From the IMG/VR virus record IMGVR_UViG_3300005613_000071, positions 1-60,342 of that record: a stretch of 60,342 nt of DNA, one strand, 5' to 3'. A model generated the notes under the pieces. The model was not told the origin of the DNA. It was given only the letters and a program-made list of their open reading frames with translations, and did no database searches. The position numbers and the translations under genes are program-made. The first letter of the stretch is position 1. Each line of letters opens with the position of its first letter. This DNA comes from a virus. Its lineage: Duplodnaviria > Caudoviricetes. Of the stretch, positions 18,184-60,342 are shown piece by piece.

Positions 18184-18623
18184 TTCTTGGACTTTTCTAT
18201 GGTCCTACCAGCGAAGTAGGCACCAAATGATGTTAGCATAAGTATCTCCAGCAAAGATACATAACTTTCTTTGACGTTAAATGGCAGATAATCAAGTGAA
18301 TCCAGGACCATAGTCACCATAAACATGCTCATCAAAGCAATCAAAGTTACAGGGCGTATGTACTTAGCGAGCTTGATGTCGCTGTTCATGTCCGCCTTCC
18401 ATCTCTCAGTAACGTTGTTCTGGAATGCAATCTCTGCGTCAATCTTTGCCTTGACTTCTTCTGGACTCAAGTCAGGGTATTGCTTGTCAATAAGGTTCTT
18501 TACAACACCCAGCGCACCCTGATCTGGCAAGAGATCCCCCACTGTATCCAATACGTTAGGGGCCTTCTCTTTAAGCCACTTGCCAAGGCTGGTATCTTTA
18601 ATCTTCTTGCTTTCCTGACTCAT
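18180..18623 (-). CDS. Putative holin
   Basis: RWKADM...IRP, two TM helices, GAYFAGRTIEK C-terminus typical of a phage holin family. Confidence 0.7.
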   Translation of the reverse strand: MSQESKKIKDTSLGKWLKEKAPNVLDTVGDLLPDQGALGVVKNLIDKQYPDLSPEEVKAKIDAEIAFQNNVTERWKADMNSDIKLAKYIRPVTLIALMSMFMVTMVLDSLDYLPFNVKESYVSLLEILMLTSFGAYFAGRTIEKSKK

Positions 18624-24600: not shown

Positions 24601-27525
24601 TGCAAGAGCGTTCGTTGGGGCGACCACATTAGATGATCTATCGCCAGACTCCTGAGTGTTGTGAACCACCACCTTGAAGTTCGAGCCAGCAGCAGCCTTA
24701 AGCGCTGGAGCAAGCATCTTGTTGATGACCCTAATGTCCTTTTTCGTGAGACCAGGGATAGACGTAATAGCTAGGCTGCCATCACTCTTGGCTTGAAACT
24801 CATCGAACTCTCCGTCAATACCACGGGAAGCAACTTTTTCTTGAGGCTGTTCTCTTACCTCTTCTTTGGTCGGCTCAACCTTAGGCTCGACAGGCTTAAC
24901 GAGATTTCGGATATCAGCAACCCTCTCGGCCTCTGGCTTCAGGTCTCCCTCAGCAGTGCCCGTTCCACCCGTGTCGATCTCCTCCATATTCTTGAGATCC
25001 CAAACAGCCTTCTGGTTGTACTGCTTACCAAGCTCAATGCCTACCTCTTTATCTACTGTGGCGGCTACGTCAATGTATGTCTTATTGTCGTTTGCATCGA
25101 ACCAAGTTCCTACTGAGATCACATCCTCGTTGCCTTCGAACAAGTCGTTGTTATCCTTCACGAATGCTTCGAGATCTTCTGCTGAGATGTCACCCTCGAC
25201 AATCTTGCTTCTCTCTGGGAAGATGCTTACGCTAGTCTTTTCTTGTCCAGCCTGATTTATTCCGTCGAGAGTAAACGTAGACCCCTTAGCTTCTTGGTCT
25301 GCATTGTGGTTTTCAAGCTGAGCTGCAGCTGAGTATTGCTGCGTAACTTCTGGAGCCTTCTCTTCAATGTTTGGGTTTATAGCCTTAAGCCCCAAGTGGT
25401 TGCGAAGGTCCTGCTCTGCAATGTACGCTTCTTCTGCAGCCTTTGTGAGCTCCTCGGTCATACCAGCCTGCGTTTGTGAAGCGCCTCGCTCGTCGCGCAA
25501 TACGCTTCTCTTCTCGCCGAGAACTCCGAGCAGTCTCAATGCTTCCTTCCTGTGGTCATTAGCTTTGTTGAGCCTGTCTGACAAGTCAGATATCACACGA
25601 GGATCGGTATCAACCCCCACTGCTCCGCTCATAGCTTCGTCAAGGGATTCTTTAAGAACAGCAACTTCGCCTCTAATGTTGTCCATCCTGTGGGCAACGC
25701 GAGAGTCCTCGTACTTTCTGCGCTCTTCTATATTCAGGTCAGTGCTCTCACCAGAGTGAGAGTTAATAATGCGCATGCGCTGGTCAACCAACGTGAAGAT
25801 GTTGCCAGTCAGCGCCTCAAGCTCTACGTCACTAACTCCTTGCTTCTGAGCATTCTTGTATCTGATAGTGGCTTGCTCAATAGCGATGTCAATATTATTG
25901 ATTCTCTCCATCTCTTTTGGATGGCGGAGTGTCATCATCCTATAGAACGTTTCCTTGGTAGCTTTCTCTTGCTGAAGCTGTTGGTCAAAGTTCTTTGAGA
26001 GTAGAGGGTCCACAGACTGTGACTTGTTCAAGGACTCAACGTTCTGCTGATCCTTGGACGTCATGCCGCTTTTCTCTACGCGAGAGTTGACGGCTGCCTG
26101 TGGTCTGCGAACAGCGTCGGCTCCCGCATCGAGTGCACGACGCGCACCTCCTGGGGCAGCGATAGTGCCTGAAGAGGCAATACCCATGACGGTAGCCTCA
26201 AGCCACCTGTCGAAGTAGTCGTCACCAGTGTAGTCTACGTTACCACCGATGTCCTCAGACAGCATGCGTGACGCCTCTTGCAATCCCTCAACACCACCCT
26301 CCGACAAAGCCTCAAGGCCTTGGTGTCTAAGGTATGTTCTAAGAGCTTCTGTAGCAGTCTCCTTCCTGAGGGGGTTGCTGATCATGTTCTTGAATGACCT
26401 CTTCAGGATGCTAGATTGAATAGATCCACCGCCAGCTGTAAGGGCGCCGTCCGCCACAGACATAAAGATTCTAGCAGCCTCTCCTTTAGCCGTGTCATCG
26501 AAGACAGGCTCTAATCCCTGCTGAATCCTGTTAAGATCTTCTCTCTCTGAGTCTTGGTAAGTGTTAGATGCAGCCACCGTGCCGCCGACAGCAATGCCTA
26601 CTGGCCCGAGAGCTGCCGCCGCAATGTACGGGGCACTGCCAGACACGGCTCTAGTGGATCTAGTAACGAGTTCAGCAACATCTCCAATGCTGTTAATATC
26701 CGTGGCTCTTTCCACAAAGCCTGTAGTGTACTGAGTTGTATAATCCGTTCTGGCTTTTTCTGTGAAGTCAGAAAGCTCCTGGTCTATAGATCTTTTGTAT
26801 GACTCTCTTACTTCGGCAGACATATATCCAGGCATAGCTGCGGCAGCAGAAGACATTGGGCCAGACAAGAAGTCAATCGTAGACATGCCCAGCTCAACAG
26901 CGTTGTCTCTAAAGAAGTCCCAAACACCACCACCAAAGCCAGTAGTCTCATTGTATCTGTCGTCACCATCCAGCGGGATAGCCAGCCCAAACTGGGAGTA
27001 GAGTCTGTTCGCGTAATCTTCTTTGTCTACGTCAGCCTCGCCGATTCTATTGTTGATCTCGTCGCTGTATCGAGAAAGCAGATCCTTTTGCTTATCTGAA
27101 GCCTTCTTATTGATGGCCTGCTGAATCTCGAAGCTCTTTTGCTCATCGGTCTTGTCCGTAGATCGGATGTCACTGACCATGGAGTTAAACTCTTCGTCAT
27201 CAAAAACGCTAGCATGAAGTTCTGCTTGGTCTGCAGCGAAGCGCTCGGCATACTCTCTACCGATACCGCTTACACTAAGATCTTGTGCGGGCGGAGAAGA
27301 AGCCAATTCTTCTTCCGAAGGCACTGAAGCTATAAGCGGTGTAGTTGTCGCCTCTGGTGATTCTAAATCTTTTTTTTTTGACTCATCAATCAGACCACTC
27401 GCATAATTCAATATGCCATCGTAGTCTATAGACTCGTCTTCAAAGTACAGTTCGTTGGCAATCCATGATGGGTTTTTACCTGCTGTGATGTACTCTTGTA
27501 TTCTTGCTTGAAGCTGTTCGTTCAT
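18598..27525 (-). CDS. Giant (2975 aa) multidomain virion cargo/ejection (polyvalent) protein
   Basis: Last gene of the virion operon; Gly/Ala-rich membrane-like segments; several embedded enzyme-like domains. Confidence 0.8.
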   Translation of the reverse strand: MNEQLQARIQEYITAGKNPSWIANELYFEDESIDYDGILNYASGLIDESKKKDLESPEATTTPLIASVPSEEELASSPPAQDLSVSGIGREYAERFAADQAELHASVFDDEEFNSMVSDIRSTDKTDEQKSFEIQQAINKKASDKQKDLLSRYSDEINNRIGEADVDKEDYANRLYSQFGLAIPLDGDDRYNETTGFGGGVWDFFRDNAVELGMSTIDFLSGPMSSAAAAMPGYMSAEVRESYKRSIDQELSDFTEKARTDYTTQYTTGFVERATDINSIGDVAELVTRSTRAVSGSAPYIAAAALGPVGIAVGGTVAASNTYQDSEREDLNRIQQGLEPVFDDTAKGEAARIFMSVADGALTAGGGSIQSSILKRSFKNMISNPLRKETATEALRTYLRHQGLEALSEGGVEGLQEASRMLSEDIGGNVDYTGDDYFDRWLEATVMGIASSGTIAAPGGARRALDAGADAVRRPQAAVNSRVEKSGMTSKDQQNVESLNKSQSVDPLLSKNFDQQLQQEKATKETFYRMMTLRHPKEMERINNIDIAIEQATIRYKNAQKQGVSDVELEALTGNIFTLVDQRMRIINSHSGESTDLNIEERRKYEDSRVAHRMDNIRGEVAVLKESLDEAMSGAVGVDTDPRVISDLSDRLNKANDHRKEALRLLGVLGEKRSVLRDERGASQTQAGMTEELTKAAEEAYIAEQDLRNHLGLKAINPNIEEKAPEVTQQYSAAAQLENHNADQEAKGSTFTLDGINQAGQEKTSVSIFPERSKIVEGDISAEDLEAFVKDNNDLFEGNEDVISVGTWFDANDNKTYIDVAATVDKEVGIELGKQYNQKAVWDLKNMEEIDTGGTGTAEGDLKPEAERVADIRNLVKPVEPKVEPTKEEVREQPQEKVASRGIDGEFDEFQAKSDGSLAITSIPGLTKKDIRVINKMLAPALKAAAGSNFKVVVHNTQESGDRSSNVVAPTNALAVNNPDGSIEIHLNAKRLAESRKSGKDPRAVIVEEVLHTTIGPALRKAYKNNPKVVYGLIDELEGIARNSGKEELVSIVEQKGDLYRKVRNAKEQEVTEEQIVEYFTELLNYDYSDPNLLDRIRVAINKFMKATLGRDAMLIEDISQAKPILQKLQRSLKTGEAFVVSETAAETTTERAALSPSKLPESGSFKIKYVRGLYDRFGGPSNSFVEEKTFNGKWDFINWWKYATDMGKGKGSVRYGQFELVKPDGSTEPVNADVMKSWKLRPPVYKEDKARVAKEKDSIKRDILPKFTKLLNIERRKTKGEPPYMGKDYISALERIVKTMDQDRVDAIYEIEQQKVDKYYTKEDFAYDIIHDYATLEEVQEAYQQANEEFGVDDSDGVTERAAYAFTDRIVSDPEVSTRYQAQLRDKARALCAVGAGTCSINDKSSLLQMESSLVKQQIGDNPTLEQSVDIAAQSLDILRQHLIHDHNTDVADAVGNYEEGRSEVMKSIAADESIEVNPMDFKMMYDLLVSYTSNGSQIDPNLNLSLQLFKAGLKRVQSGATEFISPGRIEAISKREQDGTLGMVRGDRANTMAKHLSDINEIFKQYYIDGKLNEEQFIKSAKKRDSRNIPALASMIGANTTKLADLYLGNTGDKNAIPKDGHFRDQFNVFRGRFNQVDYSEGLVISEDVRTSAIARLNALGADVNAMASDAEVFATIRDLKSKGDDKVRNGAARIYKELVGNQIERLRDFDVYDDSESTLFVKKVAKKMGLTPFQVQQLMYHDGVYSMSSYQGRPFISDYKSAMERSIGSDANTVGLDAVPGDQLALSFDNVDPITEKVMPTPGRKLNTKLEGKTIDAAENSLFRTRTKDVGTMTKVRGASVKISKTVVDEALSTDATSRRILAKGVNIEPGKKVGIRLNLNVMKNTGVPVQTVHDKTASGEALTYAPAVTVKNVELYVNQNAREKIVTFQENKFPMASVNGEFVGSGTDLNYDGVRVKFNPFSHNVFVDMAGRPVKSAEEATIIGNDVYLRGKIEYYDMSDPILDRGTIESEESRIKRTTRGAKYDKAVARFEGYAKGVLGMEFDSREALEAAYDNMVVPSDVAVSESQVAANMADAVERASIATATKKKMRQTASRQKGRFDPDIRTKIVKDPRNYITPQKLKSLKKDVQDLTDQELIDIVNDEQLGRISTMNDNLGVLAQAERLARAVARGEADIIPDLIAEMSSMGTTAGRLLRHFREVKRSSPKGLVSIITAAAEAKGNKLTEEQAKRLDDLAGQMFQAQAQVEDLETRAIRGEKVGKELEDAVKRLKAVEREMDTFTNVVIERGWGELLGQIAQGNLLTTMSQVTNIEANGVNSILDVGVDITAAPVKAFMSSLSRLAGKEYDADRRVSLGAYFYAMSHMGENFVDTIDQVITGQDKDTTEWRQSRGLMPFRSMMAAISGKDIPPSQRLKLAVQGSFGVPAEVMFRLLSLGDTPFRKYFEDKNLYEQAMEMGLEGEALADFLKHPPRKNAEKARGAGRRITFQEETAFSKGVNESIGFVERKMGEALDMLPYINGEQTAKALLRFMIPFRSTPANILIESATFASPIVAAARASSEMKKGNLDEASRHVAKAMIGAVVTETAVMLLSEGILSGPVQWDEDEEKNLAYDQFPPTSINISALKRMLSGEDASKQDDDVFVNYMKLGLPGALMAAVAVGYDKEEVREREYDGAIDFAKHMFSDMVSIGPLTAAGSMMEQSFLQGLNDFLQILAGGEVERSSDNLLNSIANVGMSVILPNQFSAIYRAQREFLPDRRITKDMDRAERLMANLEYTIKDRTFGGADIPVRVDWKGNPIKQNPRGNVGWMYQLFDVTKLRQGEDDPVSQEIYRLFESTETVSKVVSTPSFAKKRKVSVPDVTSKKELMALRMLGKNYTFLNDEKFVQSGVYFNTEQMNSLMAVAGKERYQDVENLMNSVQYEMMNDDEKVEALDEINDKYNSVKEFDGRGFRNHTVAILDIMQEIYESGKQED

Positions 27526-40659: not shown

Positions 40660-41984
40660 GATGATGCTCGGATTAAGAGAAATGTAGCATCGGAACTATT
40701 GTTTCCACAGTACGAATGAATCCAGTTTATTGTAGATCCAGAGTCAATGGGATTTGCTAAATCAGAAATGTCGACAAACCTTGTCCCTCCGATGCCGTTA
40801 CTGATGCCGTTGAGACTAGAATTTGAAGGCAAATTGTGACTACCGTAGATCGCTGGATTTGAACTGTATACTACGTAGCCTCCGTTATACTTGCCCGTAT
40901 AAACATAATTCTGAGCCATGCCATCATTAGCATCTATCTCTTCCCAAAGACCGCCTGTGCTAGTAAGCTGCCTCCACGTTCTGTCAAAGGTTAATCCAGT
41001 ACCAAATGGACTTCCGTAATTACCCGAACTGCAATACCATATTTCACCACCCTTAATAGCCATCATTACGTTTCTGGTGGGTCCAAGGTATTCCCAGTCT
41101 GTGTCGTTCCCCACTTGTTGAGGGTACAGTATATCGGTACTAGTACCAGTTCCAAGGGCCCCGTAAGCATTCTCCCCCCACCTCCAGAGCCTTCCTGTGC
41201 TATCAATAGCTCCAGGAGAGTCACTCATAACCTTAATGTCAGTCCAACCTTCTACGTCAAACGTGCCGCTGGCGGTGCCATCACTCATGAGAGTCCAAGA
41301 CGAAGTGAGCCCGCTTGTCGTGTTCAGTCCAGTTTTTCCTTCGGAGTTCGATCCTATAACATAAAGTTTACCACCATTAGATCCCTTTACCGCGATGTAA
41401 ACAGTGCTGCCATAGTATGGGTATGGGTCTCCGTGAATAGAAACCCAGTCTGTATCACTTCCAATTTGAGCGAAACTATAGTTTGCTGTAGTTCCGCTGT
41501 TTCCAAAATACGCACCGTTTCCGCTGTGGTGAAACGTTCCACTTGTGCTTACGTACATAATACCCCCGTACCCCACGAAAAAGTTGGCAACATTTTGAGC
41601 GGCCAAATGATACTCGTCCTGAGGGGCGGAGGCTGTAACAGCTCTTCCTATGGATGATGTAAAAACAGCACTAGGCCAACAGGTATAAAGGTCTCCAGAG
41701 TCTGTTAGATAGGCAGATCCAAAACCACCGAACTTGAAGTTACCTTTAGAAATAGTGGCCGTAGTTAGCTGTCCTTTTGAAGGGACGGCAGAAGGTATAA
41801 TGACATTACCATCAACCTTAATCTTAAGGACGTCTTGAGCGCCTGCCCCGCCACCCCACATAAGAACCCCTGTGTCTGCCTCTGTGAGAGCAAAGTCTTC
41901 GATAGAACCTCCTCCACCTTGCGTCACAAAGAACCCGCTTACGTTGTCGATATTCGACGTGTCTACTCCAATAATCTTACTCAT
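40656..41984 (-). CDS. RCC1/BLIP-II-like beta-propeller protein; candidate receptor-binding protein
   Basis: [36 protein letters not shown] repeats. Confidence 0.7.
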
Positions 41985-44809
41985 AGCTCAAGCCAAGTAT
42001 TGTCAGGTTTGAAATAAATAGTGCTATTAGCTCCGTCGACAACGTGACCAACAACCCTCACAAACTCTCCAGCTGTAGATGGAGCAGTAGTGGTTACTGC
42101 CCCTGCTGTCGTGCTCATGTATAGCGGCGTGCCCTTTTTAGATGCGCTCCACCCCGTGTTAGAAGACATCTTCACCACGCCTTCAACAAGCAGCTCGTCA
42201 CCACTAGCGGCATCTGTCACAACTGTGAGCATGCCAGTTGCAGCGGTACTATCTGATTGAGCTCCGACAGCTGATGGTGCGGTATTAGCAAAGTTAACTA
42301 GCGTTCCTGCCGTAGCAGCTGGTGCGGTGCCGTAAGCTCCAGTGACAAGTCGAGCTCCGTCTTGGAACTCCCCTACAGTGGTTGGCGCCGTAAATGACTG
42401 AGACATATTGGCCGAGCCGCCACCACCACTCATGGCGACCCAAGAAACTGTACCAGATCCATTTGTTTGGAGCACGTAGTTTGCGGTGCCGTCAGTAGTG
42501 GGGAGCTTAAAACCAGTTCCCAAAGGATCCCCTACTTGAAGCTGTCCGTTTACCCTTACGATGTCATTGTCGAACTCACCGTAGATAAGTGGAGTCGTCG
42601 TGCTGCTGTTGGCAATGTACAGCTTGTTGCTTTCCGTAGTGAGCTGATACCCAGCCTCATACCCAAGAAGAACATTATTGCTACCCGTGGTGAGGTTAAA
42701 CCCTGTGCGGTACCCCACCGCTGTATTAGAAGCCCCAGAGCTTACGACCTTAAGTGATTCATAGCCCACCGCTACCGTGTTGGAGAAGGTAGAAAACCCA
42801 CTTGTTCCCTGGGCTGCGTAATATCCTACCGCTACGTTGCTGTTTCCAGTGCTCAAGAAATAAAGAGATCTACGACCAAGGGCGGTGTTGGCGCCACCAC
42901 TGGTGAGGTAATACCCTGACTCTGCGCCTATCGCAGTGTTCGAGTTCCCTGAAGTAAGGAAGATCATAGCCCTATAGCCCACAGCTGTAGCAAACCTATA
43001 GACAGAGGTTCCGCTTGCACCCTTTCCAGCCGCAGTCCCCACAAGGGTGTTGGCCGCTAGGAGGTTATTGGGAACAGAGTTATACCCAGCCTCATCGCCT
43101 ACAGCAACATTATATTGCTGAGTCGTCAGGCTATGGTTAGCCCCTACACCTATCGAGACATTTCTGTTGCCACTAGTCAAAGATGATCCAGACTGCCCAC
43201 CTACAGATACGTTTCGCTGACCATCCGTCAAGGCGTCGAGAGACTGGGTTCCTATGCCTACGTTGTTGGTGGCAGTGGTGATTGAAGGCCAGCTACTCCC
43301 GATAAGAGTGTTGCTGCCTGAGTCAAGAATCTTAGCCCTGCCAACAACATGAAGCTTCTCTGTAGGGGCGGTAGTTCCGACGCCGACGTTGCCAGCCACA
43401 AGAGTTCCGCTTGCATCATCAGCATTGTTACCTATAGCAACCTTCCCCGCAGCGAGACGAGTAAACCTAACGTCTCCATTGTCTCCAGAGTTTTCTCCAA
43501 TGTGAAGGGCTCTAGATATAACAAATCTATTTACATCACCAGCGTAAGAGAATCTACCCCATTCTCCACCACCTCCCTTTTGAAAGGCCATCCTTCCACT
43601 CCACCCCACTATCCACTGATTCGTGCCGCCTGACCATCCTATCCTGTTGTAAGAGTTTACAAACAGCGTGTTTGAATTTGCAACCCCATCATCTATATGA
43701 AGTGAATAAAGTGGCGAAGTAGTGCCGATGCCGACCCTTGAGTTAGCGATATCTACATATAGCTTATCTGTAGCCGTAGCCACTCCACTTGCATCACCAG
43801 CCCATATGTTGCCAGTAGGGATGTTGGGCACGTCGTTGGCCCTGCCAGCACCCATGATGATGCCAGATATCTTATTACCACTGGTGTTTACCTTGATGAT
43901 GATGCCAAGGTTTTGAATAGCGTTGGTTCCAGTAGGCTTCGTAGTTACCCAACCTCCAGAAGCGCCTAGGTATACTGTCTGACCCTCTGAGTAGATGGAG
44001 GCGTCAGGGACGTCCACGTTGTTAATGAAGCCAAGGGCAATACCCAAACCCTCACCGTCATCGTTTAGATCTTGGTCGAGAACGAAATGAGCTGGATAGT
44101 TTGTAGCAGCATCAGCTGCAATGACTTCAGCGAGGCTTCCAACAGATCCAGTTACGTGAACAGGAGTTCCCTTGTAAAGCACACCGCCGCTAACGTTCTT
44201 TACGTTTTCTGAAATAGTACTTGGGTAAGCGAAGGAAACAGCGCCAGCGCCGTCTGCAGTTAATACTTGCCCCTCACTTCCATCTGCGGCTGGAAGAGTA
44301 TATGCGCTCCACTTGGTGTCGTAATCAGTAGCACTGTTCTTCTGAAGAAACTGATTCTCAGATCCACCAGGAGCATACCCGCCTGAAGACTCACCACGAA
44401 GATCTCCAGTTGAGAACCCAAGACCGTCGTCAGATGTAAAAGTAACAACACCAGTTCCGCTGTCGTAACTGCCCCCTGTAAAGCCTAGCCCATCAGCACC
44501 GTCAGCACCTGGAGCACCATCAATGCCATCAATACCTGGGGCCCCGTCAGCTCCGTCAGCGCCATCAGCGCCATCAGCGCCAGGAACTCCCTGAATACCT
44601 TGTATGCCCTGAGGGCCTTGTGGTCCTTGTGGACCCTGTGGGCCTTGAGCCCCTTGAGGGCCTTGAGGACCCTGAGGCCCCTGAGCTCCTTGTAGGCCAG
44701 CAGAAACCTCTACTGGGCTTACCTCTGGAGAAGAAACCTGGATAGCAGGGGTGGTCTCCACAGAGACCTTTACAACTCCTGGACCGCTATTTACAACCTT
44801 TACTGACAT
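41981..44809 (-). CDS. Tail fibre with collagen-like repeat and YadA-head-like beta-roll repeats
   Basis: (GPQ)n/(GAD)n; RVGIGTTSP; repeated N(V/T)A(V/I)G units. Confidence 0.85.
44490..44700 (-). repeat. Collagen-like Gly-X-Y repeat (9-bp periodicity)
   Basis: [12 protein letters not shown]...GADGADGAD. Confidence 0.85.
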
Positions 44810-51313: not shown

Positions 51314-51802
51314 ATGAATCATTGCACTTACTGCGGAGCGGAAAGCAAAAACCCAAGGTTCTGCTCCAGGTCTTGCTCGGCCAGCTATACAAACAAGGCT
51401 TCACCGAAAAGAAAGTTAAAAAGAAAATGCAAGAAGTGCGATGAAGTAGTAAGAAACTATAGGTCTACACTTTGCCAGCTACACTGGGATGAACACACGG
51501 AGTGGAACAAAGAGAATAGAAGGTCAAAGACGATAGGCGAAGTCGTGGAAAAAAGATCTAATCTACATCGCAGCTCAGCATATGCTGATATAAGAAACTT
51601 TGCGCGACACGATCACAAAGAAATGCTGAAGAATCCATGCTACAACTGTGGATATGATAAGCATGTTGAACTGTGTCATATAAAAGCCATAAGCGAGTTC
51701 ACGTTAGAAGCAACAATCAACGAGGTTAACGCTGCCTCTAACGTGATTCAACTCTGCCCTAACTGCCATTGGGAATTTGACAACGGCGTGTTAGAATTGT
51801 AG
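51314..51802 (+). CDS. HNH homing endonuclease with N-terminal zinc fingers
   Basis: CTYC, FCSRSC, CKKC; CYNCGY...ELCHIK...N...NVIQLCPNCH; antisense to the surrounding operon. Confidence 0.85.
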   Translation: MNHCTYCGAESKNPRFCSRSCSASYTNKASPKRKLKRKCKKCDEVVRNYRSTLCQLHWDEHTEWNKENRRSKTIGEVVEKRSNLHRSSAYADIRNFARHDHKEMLKNPCYNCGYDKHVELCHIKAISEFTLEATINEVNAASNVIQLCPNCHWEFDNGVLEL

Positions 51803-51873
51803 ACGGGGTGGGACTCCAACCCACATATGCCAATTTAGAAGATTGGTGCATTATGCTGTTATGCTACCCGTCC
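51800..51873 (-). tRNA. tRNA-Arg (anticodon TCT), divergent
   Basis: Acceptor GGACGGG/CCCGTCT; D-stem GCAT/ATGC; anticodon arm CCAAT-CTTCTAA-ATTGG; T-arm GTGGG-TTGGAGT-CCCAC; no encoded CCA. Confidence 0.75.
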
Positions 51874-55388: not shown

Positions 55389-55878
55389 TAGAGTATTGCT
55401 TTAAGTAATAAGCGTAACTCACTGCTATAGAACAGCTTATATGATACATGCATAGGAAAAAGAAGCAGTGATCGAGAGTGGACTCGCCTAAGAAAAGAAG
55501 TGAGAAATAAAGATTGTGGGGATAATACGTACCTATAGACGTCACACCCCCGCACCCGAAACGCATTACGTACCCCCGTGGGTACAACACGCTACACGTT
55601 TGGCGCATACATTTCAGCTTTTCGTAACAGGCTGGTGGCGAGCAGGTTAGAGCACGGCAGTTGGAGTAGCGGTACAGGTTGGAGTTTGTAGCGTCTATCT
55701 TCGATAGAGGACAATCCCCTCTCCCCTTCCCCACGAATCTGCGATTCACGTCGCATATGACGCCACACTGCAATGCGCTGTCCAGGTCATGACCCGTTGT
55801 CCAGCCTCATGTATGTACGCGGTCTGATGGGCCTTTTTACCCCCCTTAGGGGGTAACTTTTTTATCAGCAAAAAAAGA

Positions 55879-55911
55879 TTTGGAATTTGGCGGAAGTCGG
55901 TTATACCTTTG
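55879..55911 (+). promoter_or_regulatory. Early rightward Bacteroidota promoter (-33 TTTG, -7 TACCTTTG)
   Basis: TTTG 55879-55882, 21-nt spacer, TACCTTTG 55904-55911; A-tract upstream. Confidence 0.75.
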
Positions 55912-55963
55912 CAGAGCCATCGGCAATCGGTTGGTGGCATTCAAACTTCAAACTTCATCTCCG

Positions 55964-56527
55964 ATGAACAACAATCAATCTCGTATCAACCTCCTCAAGG
56001 AGGTTAAGTCAGCAGTCAACACTGCTTCGTTCGCTCCAACCTCAGACCGCATCGAAGATGCGAAGAAGGCGGTTCAGGAACTCATGTCATACGTCGAATC
56101 CCTCGAAGAGGGACTGAAGCCAAAGCGTCGTCGTAAGACGAAGCAGAAGTCTTCCAAGGCTACCCCAGCTACCAAGGTAGCAGACCGCCAAGAGAAGGCT
56201 TTCCATGGCCGTCCTGACACTCCTGTCACACCATCCACACGGAAGCCGAAGGCTTCGGTCGAGGCGGCTCGGAAAGCGGCTCACGACGTGTCACGTCACA
56301 CAGGGGCTGAAAGCCGAGCCAAGCGGAAAGCCGAGGCAGTCAAGGAGGCTGTCGTCATGCCGAAGGCCGCACCTATGAAGGTGACATCACATGATGAGGC
56401 TCGATTGGCCGACCTCGAAGCTAAGATTGAGGCTCTGATTGCCTTGCAATCCATGGGGCATGACGTTACACGTTCTGCTGAAGTACTCTTCAGCGACCTC
56501 CCCTTCGACCCTACTTCAAACCTCTAA
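55964..56527 (+). CDS. First early protein; Lys/Ala-rich with DLPF near the C-terminus
   Basis: ATG 55964 after promoter and TCAAACTTCAAA leader. Confidence 0.7.
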   Translation: MNNNQSRINLLKEVKSAVNTASFAPTSDRIEDAKKAVQELMSYVESLEEGLKPKRRRKTKQKSSKATPATKVADRQEKAFHGRPDTPVTPSTRKPKASVEAARKAAHDVSRHTGAESRAKRKAEAVKEAVVMPKAAPMKVTSHDEARLADLEAKIEALIALQSMGHDVTRSAEVLFSDLPFDPTSNL

Positions 56528-56537
56528 TTCATTGAAA

Positions 56538-56696
56538 ATGAACATCTGGCAACAACACATCAACGCCAACTACCGCAGGATGGTAGCTGAACTCAACGAT
56601 ATGGCTCGTTTCGAAGGAAACGACAAGGCTCTTGCGACGCTTGATGCCATCCTCGACTGCCTGAATGCTCAAAGAGCACAACTCGAACAACAATAA
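56538..56696 (+). CDS. Small early protein (52 aa)
   Basis: MNIWQQHINANY...; in-frame ATG just after upstream stop. Confidence 0.6.
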   Translation: MNIWQQHINANYRRMVAELNDMARFEGNDKALATLDAILDCLNAQRAQLEQQ

Positions 56697-56701
56697 CCCT
56701 T

Positions 56702-56760
56702 GAGTGGGGGAGTATATACACCTTCTGAGTTTACGAAGAAGGTGATATACGACCCCTCTC
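56702..56760 (+). repeat. GA-mismatch hairpin element, copy 1
   Basis: GGGG-GA-GTATAT-A-CACCTTCT-GAGTTTACGA-AGAAGGTG-ATATAC-GA-CCCC. Confidence 0.85.
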
Positions 56761-56796
56761 TCTAACTCGAAATTCAAACTTCAAAATTCAATCATC

Positions 56797-57000
56797 ATGT
56801 CAAACGTTTCAGACATCATCGACTCCGTCATCGCTTCAGGTTACATGACAAGTGTAGACGTATACAAGACGTTCGAGGACTCCGAAGCCGAACGGAAGTA
56901 CATCCTCAAGTATCACTTGGACGAAGAACTTGAGCAGTTCTTGATGTGCAAGGCAATGGAGGATGCTCTCACCCCCAAGCCTGACAAGCCCCCATACTGA
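56797..57000 (+). CDS. Small early protein
   Basis: 67-aa ORF after TCAAACTTCAAA leader. Confidence 0.65.
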   Translation: MSNVSDIIDSVIASGYMTSVDVYKTFEDSEAERKYILKYHLDEELEQFLMCKAMEDALTPKPDKPPY

Positions 57001-57007
57001 CATCACA

Positions 57008-57060
57008 GGTACACTGATGAGCCTTGATTAGGCGAAACACCCCCTTGGGGTGTCTGTATC
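57008..57060 (+). ncRNA. Type I hammerhead ribozyme 1
   Basis: GGTACA-CTGATGA-GCCT(TGATT)AGGC-GAAA-CACCCC(CTT)GGGGTG-TC-TGTATC; complete core; predicted cleavage after C57054. Confidence 0.9.
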
Positions 57061-57080
57061 AAACTTCAAATCTGTTCACC

Positions 57081-57209
57081 ATGAACCCTTCCAAACTCCA
57101 AGCCATCCTCGACATGTTCGAAACCTTCGGTGCTGACGTGATGTGTAACACCTCTGACTGGTGTGACCTGACCTGCGAAGAGCAGATGATTGTCGAGGCC
57201 AACCTGTAA
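57081..57209 (+). CDS. Small early protein (42 aa) bracketed by the two hammerheads
   Basis: MNPSKLQAILDMF...; stop abuts ribozyme 2. Confidence 0.6.
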   Translation: MNPSKLQAILDMFETFGADVMCNTSDWCDLTCEEQMIVEANL

Positions 57210-57261
57210 GGTACACTGACGAGTCCTCAATGGACGAAACACCCTTCGGGGTGTCTGTATC
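57210..57261 (+). ncRNA. Type I hammerhead ribozyme 2
   Basis: GGTACA-CTGACGA-GTCC(TCAAT)GGAC-GAAA-CACCC(TTCG)GGGTG-TC-TGTATC; predicted cleavage after C57255. Confidence 0.9.
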
Positions 57262-57280
57262 AAACTTCAATTCATCAGAG

Positions 57281-57463
57281 ATGAACACATATCATTACAT
57301 CATCTACTACCAGCGTGACCGCGACGATTGGCGCGATGGTCATATCACGGCTAACAGCCTCGAAGAGGCCTTGAGCAAGTGTCACTACAACTTCCGTCAC
57401 ACTCCGTGGACCTTGAAGAAGGTGGAGTTGGTAAAAGATAACTCGTTGATTGTCAACGCATAA
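57281..57463 (+). CDS. Small early protein (60 aa)
   Basis: MNTYHYIIYY...ITANSLEEAL. Confidence 0.65.
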   Translation: MNTYHYIIYYQRDRDDWRDGHITANSLEEALSKCHYNFRHTPWTLKKVELVKDNSLIVNA

Positions 57464-57474
57464 CATCACATTAC

Positions 57475-57549
57475 ATGAACAAAAACTTGAACCTCGCTTT
57501 CCTTGCGTGGATGTCACTCCTTGCGTTGGTGGCCTTCCTCCAACACTAA
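57475..57549 (+). CDS. 24-aa hydrophobic peptide MNKNLNLAFLAWMSLLALVAFLQH
   Basis: Read manually; single TM-like helix filling the intergenic gap. Confidence 0.45.
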   Translation: MNKNLNLAFLAWMSLLALVAFLQH

Positions 57550-57553
57550 AATA

Positions 57554-57611
57554 GAGAGGTGAGTATATATACCTTCTGAGTTTACGAAGAAGGTAATATA
57601 CGAACCCTCTC
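57554..57611 (+). repeat. GA-mismatch hairpin element, copy 2
   Basis: Same core with compensatory TACCTTCT/AGAAGGTA; outer stem GAGAGG/CCTCTC. Confidence 0.85.
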
Positions 57612-57637
57612 AAATGTCAAACTTCAAACTTCAAATC

Positions 57638-57862
57638 ATGAAAAACTTCTTTTCTCAACCTGTTGGCCGTGCGGTTCTGTTCCTCAACGGCTTCCACTTC
57701 GGAAAGCGACTCAACGACCTGAATCGGTGTGCTCGGCTTGTTCCGAAGGACGTGAAGGGCTTTGCCTCCCTCCTCACAATGATGCCTGACGCTGACGCTG
57801 AACACGTTGGCGCAATCATCGACGAGTTGGTGTTCCTCGCTGACCAAATCGAGGGGGTATGA
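57638..57862 (+). CDS. Small early protein
   Basis: MKNFFSQ... after TCAAACTTCAAACTTCAAA leader. Confidence 0.65.
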   Translation: MKNFFSQPVGRAVLFLNGFHFGKRLNDLNRCARLVPKDVKGFASLLTMMPDADAEHVGAIIDELVFLADQIEGV

Positions 57863-58056
57863 CACAAGATAAATGCGAACGTGCAGTCCAAGCACTGCAA
57901 AACCACGGCTTCAAGGCCTCTCACGTAATGGGTGGACCTGACGACCACGGGGTGTGGTTGGATGCCGTATGGACAGACAAGCTCGGAGATGCGTGTAGCT
58001 TCCGCATCCACGACGAAGAAATCGAATGGTGGCAAACCCAAAACGAACCAGCATGA
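57859..58056 (+). CDS. Small early protein
   Basis: ATGA-coupled 65-aa ORF. Confidence 0.65.
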   Translation: MTQDKCERAVQALQNHGFKASHVMGGPDDHGVWLDAVWTDKLGDACSFRIHDEEIEWWQTQNEPA

Positions 58057-58199
58057 CACAAGCAGAACGACTCGACAACCGCACGAAGAACTGCGGTAGC
58101 TTTGAACTTGCGCTCATCAGGGCGTGGTTCAAGGCCGATAGCAACAACAAGAAGATTCTCGAAAACGCCTTCAAGGGCACAATGTTTGACCTCACATGA
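58053..58199 (+). CDS. Small early protein (48 aa, GSF...L..AWFKADSNN..IL..AF)
   Basis: Read manually; ATGA overlaps at both ends. Confidence 0.6.
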   Translation: MTQAERLDNRTKNCGSFELALIRAWFKADSNNKKILENAFKGTMFDLT

Positions 58200-58378
58200 A
58201 AAATTACCATAAGTGCCACAAGTGTGGCGGCCAAGGAATCTTCCTCGAATCACAAGAAGTGGGGTGCACCACAAACGGATACATCCAGATAGAGCACGAC
58301 TACGAGTGCGAGGACTGCCGAGCCACATGGGAAGTAAACTTTGAATTAACACCAAAAGAAAGAGATAACCATGAATGA
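58196..58378 (+). CDS. Zinc-ribbon protein
   Basis: CHKCGG...CEDCRATW. Confidence 0.7.
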   Translation: MKNYHKCHKCGGQGIFLESQEVGCTTNGYIQIEHDYECEDCRATWEVNFELTPKERDNHE

Positions 58379-58514
58379 CATCATCGAAGTAATCATCGAA
58401 CTCTCCCGTATGCAGGGGCAGGCAATCGATCGGGCACAGGCAGAGGCCATCAACACTGCCGTAGAGAAAGGCTACGACAAGTGGCAAAACGAATCAAAGG
58501 ATTTGGTTGATTGA
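58371..58514 (+). CDS. Small early protein (47 aa, MNDIIEVII...)
   Basis: Read manually; overlaps upstream ORF end. Confidence 0.5.
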   Translation: MNDIIEVIIELSRMQGQAIDRAQAEAINTAVEKGYDKWQNESKDLVD

Positions 58515-58526
58515 AGTTTGACCATC

Positions 58527-58608
58527 GAGGGGGCAGAGCAAATAACTCATGTCGGGTAAATACCATAGCTCTTACGGCTGAAACGTCAGTCCGCCCCCTC
58601 ACTTTTTT
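58527..58608 (+). ncRNA. Multi-stem structured element followed by T6 tract
   Basis: Closing stem GAGGGGGC/GCCCCCTC; inner stems AGAGC/GCTCT, GGTA/TACC, GGCTGA/TCAGTC. Confidence 0.5.
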
Positions 58609-58609
58609 C

Positions 58610-58690
58610 AAGGGAGCGCAGTCGGTGCGTACATCAAGGTGTTACACGACACCAAGGATGGCAGTTGTGTTCGAATCCCAACCTCCCTTC
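58610..58690 (+). ncRNA. tRNA-like element
   Basis: Acceptor-like AAGGGAG/CTCCCTT; CGCA/TGCG; GGTGT/ACACC; T-loop TTCGAAT in GTTGTG/CCCAAC. Confidence 0.6.
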
Positions 58691-58693
58691 TAT

Positions 58694-58748
58694 GTGTGAG
58701 TGTATATACACCTTCTGAGTTTACGAAGAAGGTGATATACACGAACAC
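58694..58748 (+). repeat. GA-mismatch hairpin element, copy 3
   Basis: GTGT-GA-GTGTATAT-A-CACCTTCT-GAGTTTACGA-AGAAGGTG-ATATACAC-GA-ACAC. Confidence 0.85.
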
Positions 58749-58782
58749 TTCAAATCATTTTCAAACTTCAAATCAATTCAGC

Positions 58783-59370
58783 ATGAAACAATATGCAGTA
58801 ATCCACGCTGTCGCAGGACTCTTCGAAGGGTACTCCGACACCACTTGCGAGTTCTTCCCCAAGCGGGGATTCGCAGAGAAGCACATCAACCAAATCCTGT
58901 CTGACTACGCAAACGATGATATGTGTGTGGACGTCAGCGGAGGGTTTGACGATGGCATTTACGCCACCATGACCCGTGACTACGAGGACTATGCGGCTTG
59001 CGTACCATCTGATATGTCGCATGACGATTGGGTTGCAGAGAATGGCGACGACGTTAGTGTCGAGGTGTTCCGCATCATCGAGGTTGATATGTCCAACCGC
59101 TCCGACTCCACCGAGTCATGTTGGTTGACGTGGGACCAACAGGATACTACCCAAGCATGGGACTACTTCCCCTTGTGTATGTCCTTGGTGGCTCGTGTCT
59201 CCTCTGATGTCATGGACAACGACCAATCGGTTCACGGCCTCGAACAACTGACGGACTTCATCTCCTCGGTATACTACGGCAGTCACGCTCTCATCGACAT
59301 CGACGACTATGTGATGCACGCTTTCCGTATCCCCAAACCAAAGAACAATGACGAAGAAACAACTGCTTGA
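58783..59370 (+). CDS. Acidic early hypothetical protein
   Basis: MKQYAVIHAV... after TCAAACTTCAAA leader; C-terminus duplicated at window start. Confidence 0.75.
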   Translation: MKQYAVIHAVAGLFEGYSDTTCEFFPKRGFAEKHINQILSDYANDDMCVDVSGGFDDGIYATMTRDYEDYAACVPSDMSHDDWVAENGDDVSVEVFRIIEVDMSNRSDSTESCWLTWDQQDTTQAWDYFPLCMSLVARVSSDVMDNDQSVHGLEQLTDFISSVYYGSHALIDIDDYVMHAFRIPKPKNNDEETTA

Positions 59371-59575
59371 CCTCATCGCACAATACCCTGACGATGCAGA
59401 GGTGGTAATCGAGGTGCATGACACCACGCTACACGAAGACCTGTACGACTTCACGTTAGACCCCATCTCGTGGGCTCGATTTGACAACACCACAGACAAT
59501 CCAATGGATTCCTTTGACTACAAAACCATGCACGAGCTACGGCTCTGCCCAATCAAGAACACAATAATCGAATAA
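59348..59575 (+). CDS. Small early protein (homolog of 263..454)
   Basis: MTKKQLLD...HDTTLHEDLYDF. Confidence 0.7.
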   Translation: MTKKQLLDLIAQYPDDAEVVIEVHDTTLHEDLYDFTLDPISWARFDNTTDNPMDSFDYKTMHELRLCPIKNTIIE

Positions 59576-59576
59576 G

Positions 59577-59732
59577 ATGCACATCAATGACTTCATGGCC
59601 ATCTGTGAGCAAGCCACAATCGATCCCGTGCTCGCATCTGAAGACGATGGTGTCAAGACCATCCTCAAGACGCCAACATCAGACGACAACCAACGAGCAA
59701 TGCTCATCAACTACTTCAACAAAAATTTCTAA
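59577..59732 (+). CDS. Small early protein (51 aa, MHINDFMAICEQ...)
   Basis: Read manually; fills the gap exactly between neighbours. Confidence 0.6.
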   Translation: MHINDFMAICEQATIDPVLASEDDGVKTILKTPTSDDNQRAMLINYFNKNF

Positions 59733-59734
59733 TC

Positions 59735-60307
59735 ATGAACTCAGTACAAGAATCCAAGAACGAGCTCGAAGCGGCTATCCGCTACGCAGAGAACGCTATC
59801 TCATCTGCACAGGGTACTATCGAGTCGATGGAGTTCCGCCAAGAGATGGCGAAGAAGAACTACCAAGAGCAGACAGGACGTGAGCAAGCCCTCGAAGCTC
59901 AGGTTGAACAACTCAAGGCCGAGCTTGATAAGCTCCGCAAGGAGAAAGAATCATCAAGCGGACCATGCGGATGCCAAGCATACCGCGACCTCGAAGAGCG
60001 AGCTACTATGCCCGTCATCCCTCGTGACGTAGCCATCGCCATCTTCCGTGAGGGTGTGCAGTCAGGCGTCAATGATGCTGTTGCTGAACTCGAAGGGCAG
60101 ACCATCAACATCTGCGAGAACGAATACTGCGGTGACTTCGAGGTGACATTCGCACGAGACATTCACCTCGATGATGAGCTTGACCTCGACTGGATGCGCG
60201 GCAAGGTTGGGCAGTACGAAGAGTCCTTCGTGGTAGATGCACTCAAGGGATTGTGTGCAAGCAAGGAGTTCGAGTGCCGCATCCACGGAATCGACGACAA
60301 TGACTAA
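59735..60307 (+). CDS. Coiled-coil early protein (short allele of 1384..2100)
   Basis: Near-identical translation lacking ~43 internal residues. Confidence 0.8.
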   Translation: MNSVQESKNELEAAIRYAENAISSAQGTIESMEFRQEMAKKNYQEQTGREQALEAQVEQLKAELDKLRKEKESSSGPCGCQAYRDLEERATMPVIPRDVAIAIFREGVQSGVNDAVAELEGQTINICENEYCGDFEVTFARDIHLDDELDLDWMRGKVGQYEESFVVDALKGLCASKEFECRIHGIDDND

Positions 60308-60342
60308 TCAAGTGAACGTAAAGCCTGAGGTAATCATCCGTA

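What the first reader, a model, noticed from the sequence alone, without database searches (positions are those of the whole stretch)
56702..58748. Three copies of a ~55-60-nt hairpin with conserved tandem GA/GA mismatches and covariation
Seen: the core ACCTTCTGAGTTTACGAAGAAGGT is invariant at 56702-56760, 57554-57611 and 58694-58748. The apex can be drawn CT-GA-GT(TT)AC-GA-AG. A second GA/GA opposition lies lower in the stem in all copies, with a bulged A. Copy 2 has a compensatory C-G to T-A change, and the outer stems differ in sequence but still pair. Sheared GA pairs would form on this strand only, so the structure is strand-specific. Inference: an RNase III-type processing site, a phage-protein operator, or an ssDNA hairpin signal (cf. 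N4 hairpin promoters). I do not recognise it as a named family; the CTGAG..CGAAG apex loosely recalls Bacteroidota palindromic repeats.
Basis: partly seen in the sequence, partly recalled or inferred. Interest (0 to 1): 0.75.

Follow-up and report, generated by a model that had tools for sequence, protein, structure and literature searches.

The report
Repeated early-gene hairpin of a Flavobacteria phage
Three near-identical 60-base hairpins sit between the first small genes of a marine Bacteroidota phage; they belong to a large undescribed hairpin family that trades places with self-cleaving ribozymes and promoters in related phages, so they most likely mark where early messages are cut or begun.

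Summary
The 24-nt core occurs 3 times, 0 expected. Each copy folds into a 55-59-nt hairpin with two GA/GA oppositions and a bulged A. The window is a whole 60-kb podophage of a Bacteroidota host, distantly akin to crAss-like phages. The copies lie in the early + strand block, each between an upstream gene or tRNA-like element and a leader (TCAAACTTCAAA) plus ATG.

The family has at least 115 distinct members in IMG/VR relatives, median 24 bp, and 19 of 22 pairs show double changes. No Rfam family matches.

In one orthologous slot, relatives carry a hairpin (14 of 23), a hammerhead (2), a host-type promoter (3) or nothing (4).

Best reading (about 0.4): an RNA-level intercistronic processing or insulating hairpin of RNase III type.

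Main rival (about 0.3): a DNA hairpin initiation signal. The sister-type apex also sits in short hairpins inside replication-initiator genes of unrelated phages (8 of 8 ORFs tested), and G-U pairs are rare.

No RNA ends could be mapped. I rate it a new variant of a known kind.

The parts
56702..56760 (+). Hairpin copy A (type 1). It starts 6 nt after the stop codon of ORF 56460-56696.
   Evidence: exact core at 56720-56743; fold -33.6 kcal/mol, z -7.7.
57554..57611 (+). Hairpin copy B (type 1), with the C-G to T-A double change. It starts 5 nt after the stop codon of a 24-codon ORF (57475-57549).
   Evidence: exact core at 57571-57594; fold -26.1 kcal/mol, z -5.9.
58694..58748 (+). Hairpin copy C (type 1), directly after a tRNA-like element.
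   Evidence: exact core at 58710-58733; fold -28.2 kcal/mol, z -6.5.
56774..56785 (+). G-poor leader motif TCAAACTTCAAA between hairpin A and the ATG at 56797.
   Evidence: 10 matches with up to 1 mismatch against 0.41 expected; 8 of them on the + strand, 7 between 55.9 and 58.8 kb.
57617..57635 (+). Two overlapping leader motifs between hairpin B and the ATG at 57638.
58761..58772 (+). Leader motif between hairpin C and the ATG at 58783.
57007..57062 (+). Type I hammerhead ribozyme in the next intergenic slot. Predicted cut after 57054, 5 nt before a leader motif.
   Evidence: RAGATH-1-hammerhead, 23.9 bits, below gathering score; full core, and 9 of 17 pairs compensatory among 28 homologues.
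57209..57263 (+). Second type I hammerhead ribozyme. Predicted cut after 57255.
   Evidence: Hammerhead_1, 22.8 bits, E 0.04, gathering score 34.
58610..58691 (+). tRNA-like element (acceptor-like stem, D-like arm, T-arm GTTCGAATC) that abuts hairpin C.
   Evidence: fold. ARAGORN and Rfam do not call it. Relatives keep the T-arm upstream of 24 of 182 hairpin contexts.
58527..58609 (+). Long conserved stem-loop followed by a T-run. Likely the terminator at the end of the first early block.
   Evidence: conserved in relatives (output).
55879..55911 (+). Host-type (Bacteroidota sigma-A-like) promoter: TTTG, 21 nt, TAccTTTG. It lies upstream of the first + strand gene (55964).
   Evidence: Conserved in relatives. 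The consensus is recalled, not tested.

Best explanation
The three hairpins are RNA elements of a polycistronic early transcript that the host RNA polymerase starts at the sigma-A-type promoter at 55.88 kb.

Each forms a helix of about 24 bp in the spacer between two cistrons. It acts as a processing and insulating module. The likely route is cleavage by the host double-strand-specific RNase III, as at the five sites of the phage T7 early transcript. This would separate the downstream cistron, with its G-poor leader at or near the new 5' end, from the upstream one, and leave stem remnants that protect the new ends.

In this phage clade the module is one of four interchangeable devices placed directly before the leader: hairpin, hammerhead ribozyme, tRNA-like element and internal promoter.

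Shown here:
- the structure and its covariation;
- the position and orientation;
- the helix length;
- the interchange between devices within a slot.

Inferred only:
- that the region is one transcript;
- that the hairpin is cut, and by which enzyme.
For: 1. Position. All three copies lie in spacers between co-directional small early genes, on the gene strand. Each sits a few nt after a stop codon or tRNA-like end, and 13-26 nt before the leader. Of 182 distinct family contexts, 100 have the leader within 50 nt downstream, and 98 of those have an ATG within the next 35 nt. Every hairpin found in loci L122-L155, which are oriented by a gene, lies on the gene strand.

2. Helix length. In 115 distinct long hairpins the median is 24 bp, and 112 of 115 have 20-30 bp. 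The idealised E. coli RNase III substrate is 22 bp, two helical turns. Bulges or loops give single-strand cuts that leave 3' hairpins as stability determinants (PMC3867540, passages read).

3. Slot interchange. Upstream of orthologues of gene 57638 in 23 loci, I found 14 hairpins of three sequence types, 2 hammerheads, 3 sigma-A-like promoters and 4 empty slots. Upstream of orthologues of gene 58783 in 34 loci, classed by eye, I found 12 hairpins, 4 clear promoters, and 3 cases where the tRNA-like element abuts the leader.

4. Real hammerheads occupy the next two spacers of the window. Hammerheads that flank single genes in prophages have been read as processing long phage transcripts (PMC3088659, passages read).

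5. The structure is under selection. 19 of 22 pairs show double changes against 11.9 in shuffles (0 of 500 shuffles reach it). The covariation score is 0.304 against 0.154 in shuffles and 0.09-0.17 when partners are slid.

6. A conserved host-type promoter precedes the block. No phage RNA polymerase was recognised.
Against: 1. G-U pairs are rare: 40 of 2781 pairs on the + strand. They are no commoner than on the reverse strand (71 of 2767). That is unlike most RNA helices.

2. The core sequence is far more conserved than an RNase III site needs. 24-38 nt are identical across phages whose flanking proteins are 55-85% identical.

3. The apex of the sister type (CTCTGAAC-RNA-GTGAAGAG, where RNA means purine, any base, A) recurs in short hairpins antisense within replication-initiator genes of unrelated phages. 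An RNA-processing role does not explain that.

4. The apex loops (C-GNA-G, TTTA) are motifs noted for stability in DNA. The RNA forms are less stable (PMC13037366, passages read; the TTTA point is recalled).

5. No internal loop or bulge holds a fixed position family-wide.

6. No transcript ends were seen. The only RNA data were assembled contigs, and their ends at 56721 and 58711 are explained by the 31-mer assembly graph.
Confidence: 0.4

Rival explanations
1. A DNA-level hairpin or cruciform initiation signal. The + strand of the palindrome extrudes as a very stable hairpin when the early region is opened or supercoiled. It then marks a start site, either for an unrecognised hairpin-reading RNA polymerase (as N4 early promoters do) or for priming or helicase loading (an origin-type signal).
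For: 1. The sister-type apex occurs in short 5-8-bp hairpins in unrelated phages and proviruses (no portal or giant-protein match in 5 records). There it lies antisense inside genes of replication initiators or primosomal proteins. 8 of 8 ORFs tested are of that kind, from six different PHROG families; Pfam recognised 4 of the 8.

2. In those phages the hairpin is followed by pyrimidine-rich short repeats and then iteron-like repeats. This is the same order as palindrome, pyrimidine tract and iterons on the antisense strand of ori-lambda.

3. The review PMC13037366 (passages read) states that GCGNAGC-type mini-hairpins occur at the G4 origin, in RSF1010 ssiA and in N4 virion-polymerase promoters.

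4. G-T pairs are rare on both strands. The stems have (TA)n runs. The sequence is highly conserved.

5. In hairpin-less relatives the same slots hold promoters with a DnaA-box-like 9-mer, perfect in two cases.

6. There are three to five copies, confined to the first 3-4 kb of the early block, as with the three N4 early promoters (recalled).
Against: 1. No RNA polymerase was found. No ORF has a DFDxD or DxDxD motif in the 2975-aa protein or any other candidate. There were no Pfam, PHROG or PDB sequence hits, and the atlas lead was only a DUF.

2. The stable apex is on the non-template strand for the downstream genes, whereas N4 reads the template strand (recalled).

3. The window copies have no iterons and no initiator gene nearby.

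4. Tight coupling to stop codons, leader and ATG, and exchange with hammerheads, are RNA-level features.

5. A host-type promoter already serves the block.

6. The link to origins rests on type 3, not on the type 1 apex of the window. A 14-mer scan found type 1 only in this clade.
Confidence: 0.3
2. An RNA operator or antitermination site. A phage or host protein binds the conserved apex in the nascent early RNA. It either controls translation of the next cistron, or makes the polymerase read through the terminator-like structure at 58.53-58.61 kb (nut- or put-like).
For: 1. The apex sequence is invariant among the 26 type 1 copies and nearly so within type 3.

2. Two copies lie upstream of a terminator-like stem with a T-run.

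3. The apex has a pyrimidine-rich 5' arm, a purine-rich 3' arm and G.A closing pairs, as lambdoid boxB hairpins do (recalled).
Against: 1. Types 1, 2 and 3, with different apices, coexist in one genome: L011 has all three, and L143 has type 2 three times plus type 3.

2. Type 2 lacks the upper GA/GA.

3. No window protein is present in all hairpin-bearing loci and absent from all hairpin-less ones.

4. Copy C lies after the terminator.

5. Three to five sites in 3-4 kb, each glued to a start codon, is unlike nut or put sites.
Confidence: 0.1
3. Chiefly a recombination cassette. The repeated hairpin-plus-leader units serve as homology patches that shuffle small early genes between phages, like PeSL elements of T4-type phages. 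Any molecular role, such as mRNA 3' or 5' protection, would be secondary.
For: 1. Identical 38-60-nt units flank different genes in different relatives. For example, copy C-type hairpins precede unrelated ORFs in L005 and L017.

2. Hairpin types are mixed among closely related genomes.

3. The early small ORFs are the most variable genes.

4. PeSLs are described as composite promoter/terminator motifs that mediate such shuffling (PMC4122927, abstract read).
Against: Homology patches need no hairpin, no covariation and no fixed orientation or spacing to the start codon. The units contain no recognisable promoter.
Confidence: 0.1

Closest known systems
RNase III processing sites of the phage T7 early transcript (R0.3 to R1.3)
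   Same: They are several hairpins of roughly two helical turns. They sit between cistrons of a host-polymerase-made early polycistronic RNA at the leading end of a podophage genome, and they carry internal loops or bulges (PMC3867540, passages; layout details recalled).
   Different: Cleavage is not shown here. The sequences are unrelated. The core is invariant over 24-38 nt, whereas T7 sites differ from one another. G-U pairs are nearly absent. The modules exchange with hammerheads, a tRNA-like element and promoters.
N4 virion-RNA-polymerase hairpin promoters and other mini-hairpin DNA initiation sites (G4 origin, RSF1010 ssiA)
   Same: There are three copies at the start of the early region. 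The hairpin is strand-specific, with sheared G.A pairs and (in type 3 relatives) a C-GNA-G triloop. They are associated with initiation regions (PMC13037366, passages).
   Different: N4 hairpins have 5-7-bp stems and 3-nt loops on the template strand, and they need a T7-like virion polymerase. Here the stems have 20-30 bp, the stable apex is on the coding strand, and no polymerase was found.
Palindrome of lambda-type replication origins
   Same: Short hairpins with the type 3 apex occupy the same place as the ori-lambda palindrome. They lie inside the initiator gene, next to a purine/pyrimidine-skewed tract and iterons.
   Different: The window copies are intergenic, long and multiple, and have neither iterons nor an initiator gene nearby. 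The lambda palindrome itself has a different loop.
PeSL cassettes of T4-type phages
   Same: They are repeated regulatory cassettes with a stem-loop that flank small variable early ORFs and coincide with gene swaps (PMC4122927, abstract).
   Different: PeSLs contain an early promoter and a terminator-like stem-loop. These units contain neither a recognisable promoter nor a T-run.
Hammerhead ribozymes flanking genes in prophages
   Same: They occupy the same kind of slot. In this clade they occupy literally the same slots, directly before the same leader.
   Different: The hairpin has no hammerhead core, no other known ribozyme signature in Rfam, and little room for tertiary structure.

Membership tests
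Any Rfam 15 family | Covariance-model score at or above the family's gathering score | tested here: not met
   (whole window, gathering threshold): only a tRNA at 51800-51873. (55500-60342, E up to 10): the only hit on a hairpin is mir-1991, 21 bits against a gathering score of 66, E=2, on the reverse strand of copy B.
Bacterial RNase III processing site | Double-helical stem of about 22 bp (two turns) | tested here: met
   Window copies have 21-22 standard pairs plus two GA/GA loops. The family median is 24 bp, and 112 of 115 have 20-30 bp.
Bacterial RNase III processing site | Lies within a transcript, between functional units | tested here: inconclusive
   The intergenic position on the gene strand is shown. 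Co-transcription is inferred from one upstream promoter. RNA-run contigs cover the region but cannot show transcripts or ends.
Bacterial RNase III processing site | Cleaved by RNase III | not testable with these tools
   Needs an enzyme assay or an rnc mutant.
N4-type virion-polymerase hairpin promoter | 5-7-bp stem and 3-nt loop on the template strand | tested here: not met
   The stems have 20-30 bp. The window apex is G-UUUA-C flanked by GA/GA, and it lies on the non-template strand for the downstream genes.
N4-type virion-polymerase hairpin promoter | Phage encodes a virion RNA polymerase | tested here: not met
   The 2975-aa ORF matches only the L5 gp82-like domain. There are no polymerase families, no PDB sequence hit at E of 1 or less, and no DFDxD or DxDxD motif. 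A very divergent enzyme cannot be excluded.
Mini-hairpin DNA (GCGNAGC type) | C-G closing pair with a GNA loop | tested here: inconclusive
   Type 3 relatives have AC-RNA-GT (GTA, GAA, ACA, AGA). The window's type 1 has a TTTA loop closed by G-C. It carries the string CGAAG only on its 3' side, where the symmetric fold does not use it as a loop.
Intrinsic terminator | GC-rich stem followed by a U-run | tested here: not met
   No T-run follows any copy, and the terminator scan does not list them.
Kink-turn | 3-nt bulge directly flanking tandem G.A pairs | tested here: not met
   Both GA/GA loops are symmetric 2x2 loops between regular helices. The single bulged A is 8 bp away from the upper one.
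Lambda-type origin palindrome | Inside or beside an initiator gene, next to iterons | tested here: not met
   Not met for the window copies. Met for the short-form hairpins of other phages.
PeSL cassette | Early promoter plus stem-loop flanking variable ORFs | tested here: not met
   They do flank variable ORFs. No sigma-70-type or Bacteroidota-type promoter lies within the unit.

The most novel reading that the evidence does not exclude
The hairpin is the expanded, multiplied form of a widespread and so far undescribed DNA hairpin signal. Its features are a pyrimidine-rich 5' arm, tandem sheared G.A pairs, a 2-bp cap with an RNA (purine-N-A) or TTTA mini-loop, and a pyrimidine-rich tract downstream. 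This signal marks initiation sites in many unrelated phages. It sits at lambda-type origins inside at least six different initiator gene families, and in Flavobacteria podophages it is reused three to five times at the head of the early region. There it would act as a start site for replication priming or for hairpin-dependent transcription.
Probability: 0.3. Interest if true: 0.8.

Novelty: new variant of a known kind. Interest (0 to 1): 0.6.

Why it matters
If the RNA reading is right, this clade of abundant marine Bacteroidota phages builds its early operon from interchangeable end-making modules: hairpin, hammerhead, tRNA-like element and promoter. Each is placed before a common translation leader. 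This is a natural counterpart of the insulator parts used in synthetic biology. It would also give a functional context for phage hammerheads, whose role is still open (PMC6765202, passages).

If the DNA reading is right, a single hairpin motif links origins of many temperate phages with the early regions of lytic Flavobacteria phages. That would point to a conserved host factor that reads it.

It is absent from Rfam and easy to test.

Tried and rejected
1. Public RNA runs. Four metatranscriptome runs hold small shares (0.05-0.09 of sampled words), and only as assembled contigs. Contig starts at 56721 and 58711 lie exactly 30 nt before the end of the sequence shared by copies A and C. That is what a 31-mer graph produces, so they say nothing about RNA ends. 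No expression claim is made.

2. Nucleotide and protein searches of the GenBank phage set. The locus and the 2975-aa protein found nothing. Only TerL gave distant relatives.

3. Virion RNA polymerase. Motif, Pfam, PHROG, PDB-sequence and atlas searches found none. Weak motif-B-like and HDG strings in the giant protein are in the wrong order and spacing, so I dropped them.

4. A cognate protein by presence and absence. tblastn of all window ORFs against five whole relatives and 34 loci gave no gene that tracks the hairpins.

5. G-U bias as a test for RNA. There is no excess on the + strand.

6. Type 1 apex outside the clade.

7. Known ribozyme. Rfam at E up to 10 gives nothing on the hairpins.

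8. Terminator. No T-run.

9. L167 and L197 carry the type 3 apex in a 70-nt tandem array with only a 4-bp stem. I did not follow this up.

11. Literature searches found no description of this hairpin. The terms were: hammerhead + bacteriophage + intergenic + polycistronic; sheared + DNA hairpin + triloop + replication origin; and hammerhead / Cellulophaga / Flavobacterium phage / ribozyme.
Full report
**Observation.** The core ACCTTCTGAGTTTACGAAGAAGGT is present three times, all on the + strand, at 56720, 57571 and 58710. No match appeared in 100 shuffles, even with three mismatches allowed. The whole record has no fourth copy. Energies are -33.6, -26.1 and -28.2 kcal/mol, and z-scores are -7.7, -5.9 and -6.5. 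From the base upward each has a copy-specific outer stem, a GA/GA 2x2 loop, an AT-rich stem, a bulged A, an 8-bp stem, a second GA/GA loop, and a G-C pair closing UUUA. Copy B has the C-G to T-A double change. The reverse strand folds 2.3-5.5 kcal/mol less well.

**What the window is.** The window is a complete IMG/VR virus record of 60,342 nt, with a CheckV estimate of 99%.
- It encodes a portal, a TerL, a primase-helicase, ribonucleotide reductase and endolysins.
- A 1494-aa protein carries the crAss muzzle C-terminal domain. An M43 peptidase sits next to a protein with a type IX secretion CHU_C domain.
- TerL is 39-50% identical to those of Flavobacterium, Cellulophaga and uncultured phages.

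The phage is therefore a podophage of a Bacteroidota host, distantly akin to crAss-like phages.

Genes on the - strand fill 18.6-55.2 kb. Genes on the + strand run from 55.96 kb to the end of the record and continue at 1-17.7 kb. The 2975-aa ORF has no recognisable polymerase.

**Surroundings.** The hairpins lie in the first 3 kb of the + block, among ORFs of 24-195 codons. In order, the block contains:
- a host-type promoter (TTTG, 21 nt, TAccTTTG; consensus recalled) at 55879-55911;
- two ORFs;
- hairpin A;
- an ORF;
- a hammerhead;
- an ORF;
- a second hammerhead;
- two ORFs;
- hairpin B;
- five ORFs;
- a long stem with a T-run (58527-58609);
- a tRNA-like element (58610-58691);
- hairpin C;
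- the conserved 195-codon gene.

Each hairpin, each hammerhead and the promoter is followed within about 25 nt by the G-poor motif TCAAACTTCAAA, and then by an ATG. That motif has 10 matches against 0.41 expected.

The hammerheads score below Rfam's gathering score (22.8 and 23.9 bits). They nevertheless have the full core, and among 28 homologues 9 of 17 pairs show compensatory changes.

**The family.** The exact core occurs in 14 other IMG/VR stretches, 23 copies in all. Loci found through the 195-codon protein (34 loci) and a leader-anchored scan revealed two further sequence types with the same architecture.
- Type 2 has the apex CT-TC-AT(TT)AT-GA-AG.
- Type 3 has the apex CT-GA-AC(RNA)GT-GA-AG, where RNA is purine, any base, A.

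The types coexist in single genomes: L011 has all three, and L143 has type 2 three times plus type 3.

I aligned 55 distinct 72-nt members without reference to structure (A1).
- RNAalifold finds 9 of 12 pairs with compensatory changes.
- With the window's own structure, 81% of cells pair, against 72.5% in shuffles.
- 19 of 22 pairs have double changes, against 11.9 in shuffles (0 of 500 shuffles reach it).
- The covariation score is 0.304, against 0.154 in shuffles and 0.09-0.17 when partners are slid.

The two cap pairs covary: GT/AC 16, AT/AT 10, AC/GT 26 of the 52 parsed. The three unparsed rows read AC..GT by eye.

With a further scan, 115 distinct long hairpins are in hand, with a median of 24 bp.

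The bulged A is specific to type 1. Type 2 replaces the upper GA/GA with Watson-Crick pairs.

No Rfam family matches.

**Interchange within slots.** Upstream of orthologues of gene 57638, 23 loci carry a hairpin of type 1, 2 or 3 (14), a hammerhead (2), a sigma-A-like promoter (3, two of them with a DnaA-box-like 9-mer) or nothing (4). Some loci are near-duplicates, so these are not 23 independent events. In the hairpin and promoter cases the C-terminus of the upstream ORF is conserved, so the slot is the same.

Upstream of the 195-codon gene, 34 loci classed by eye carry:
- 12 hairpins;
- 4 clear and 3 doubtful promoters;
- 3 cases where the tRNA-like element abuts the leader;
- 11 with another ORF or only the leader;
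- 1 cut off.

Whole relatives G006-G008 have no hairpin. G010 has five, all in its early block. No window protein tracks the presence of hairpins.

**An unexpected relative.** Of 157 occurrences with full flanks, 129 are long family hairpins. The other 28 are shorter or lack a stem; about 7 chance matches would be expected by my rough estimate of the collection size.

Many of the short ones lie in phages and proviruses of 37-67% G+C. Five such records have no portal or giant-protein match to the window. In these the hairpin has a 5-8-bp stem and is followed by pyrimidine-rich short tandem repeats and then iteron-like repeats. It lies antisense inside a gene. All 8 such ORFs tested are replication initiators or primosomal proteins, from six PHROG families, and Pfam recognises 4 of the 8.

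Read on its antisense strand, ori-lambda has the same order: palindrome, pyrimidine tract, iterons. Its loop is different.

A review states that GCGNAGC-type mini-hairpins are found at the G4 origin, in RSF1010 ssiA and in N4 promoters, and that the RNA versions are much less stable (PMC13037366, passages read).

**Weighing the readings.**

For an RNA role:
- the strict placement after a stop codon and before the leader and ATG (98 of 182 contexts have both leader and ATG);
- the constant gene-strand orientation;
- the helix length, which matches the 22-bp RNase III substrate (PMC3867540);
- the exchange with hammerheads and a tRNA-like element, which are RNA-level end-makers (PMC3088659);
- the host-type promoter that can feed the block.

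For a DNA role:
- the origin-linked apex;
- the DNA-type loops;
- the scarcity of G-U pairs on either strand (40 of 2781 and 71 of 2767);
- the extreme sequence conservation;
- the exchange with promoters that carry a DnaA-box-like 9-mer.

I put the RNA processing or insulator reading at about 0.4, the DNA initiation signal at about 0.3, an operator or antitermination site at about 0.1, and a mainly recombinational cassette at about 0.1.

The phi14:2 study found no common motif upstream of early transcripts made by the crAss-type virion polymerase (bioRxiv 10.1101/2020.03.07.982082, passages read). It therefore gives no precedent either way.

**Limits.** No RNA ends could be mapped. The only RNA data were contigs, and their ends are assembly artefacts. 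The alignment mixes related sequences, so shuffle counts are not probabilities. Promoter, DnaA-box and N4 or T7 details are recalled. Supplements were closed.

**Verdict.** This is a real, conserved, structured repeat. It is not a named family. I rate it a new variant of a known kind (intercistronic phage hairpins), with an open and testable link to origin hairpins.

Noticed in passing
window 57007-57062 and 57209-57263 (+): Two type I hammerhead ribozymes lie between small early genes. They score below Rfam's gathering score but have a complete core. 29 distinct homologues in relatives show covariation in all three stems.
   Followed up: yes
window 58610-58691 (+): A tRNA-like element with an acceptor-like stem and a T-arm. 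ARAGORN and Rfam do not call it. It is conserved upstream of hairpins or leaders in relatives, and ARAGORN calls one copy in L006 as tRNA-???.
   Followed up: partly
window 58511-58609 (+): Right after the stop codon of ORF 58371-58514 lies the reverse complement of the leader motif (TTGAAGTTTGA). It is followed by a long conserved stem-loop and a T-run. The anti-leader is conserved in relatives and could pair with leaders in RNA.
   Followed up: no
window 55.9-58.8 kb (+), e.g. 55941, 56774, 57059, 57617, 58761: The G-poor leader TCAAACTTCAAA, often doubled, lies 10-25 nt before early start codons. No Shine-Dalgarno sequence is visible. It is probably a translation leader of a Bacteroidota host.
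   Followed up: partly
L139, L140, L126 (e.g. L140 about 1100-1130; L139 about 1290-1315 and about 3950-3980): In hairpin-less relatives, internal sigma-A-like promoters carry a DnaA-box-like 9-mer in the spacer. It is perfect in two cases (TTATCCACA, TTTTCCACA) and off by one base in three.
   Followed up: partly
L202, L229, L157, L194, L203, L251, L230, L226: Short hairpins with the apex CTCTGAAC-GNA-GTGAAGAG lie antisense inside replication-initiator genes of unrelated phages and proviruses, next to pyrimidine-rich repeats and iterons. They look like a conserved origin component.
   Followed up: partly
L167 1-330 and L197 11570-11828: A 70-nt tandem array (4-5 units at a contig end) in which each unit contains the same apex motif with only a 4-bp stem.
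   Followed up: no
window 18598-27525 (-): A 2975-aa ORF beside the muzzle-like gene. It has only an L5 gp82-like domain and no polymerase motif. It is barely alignable even among close relatives (2-5% coverage in G006, G007 and G010; 74% in G009).
   Followed up: partly
window 44611-44680 (-) region of ORF 41981-44809: A collagen-like repeat in the tail-fibre gene gives the strongest 70-nt fold of the genome (-42.8 kcal/mol). This is a coding repeat, not an RNA element.
   Followed up: no
L273 (MAG contig labelled Parvibaculum sp., 7461 nt): This is the only hit of the type 1 core in 185,579 species genomes: two copies on a short contig. It is probably a phage fragment binned into a MAG.
   Followed up: no
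window 51799-51873 (-): tRNA-Arg (TCT), the only canonical tRNA of the phage.
   Followed up: no
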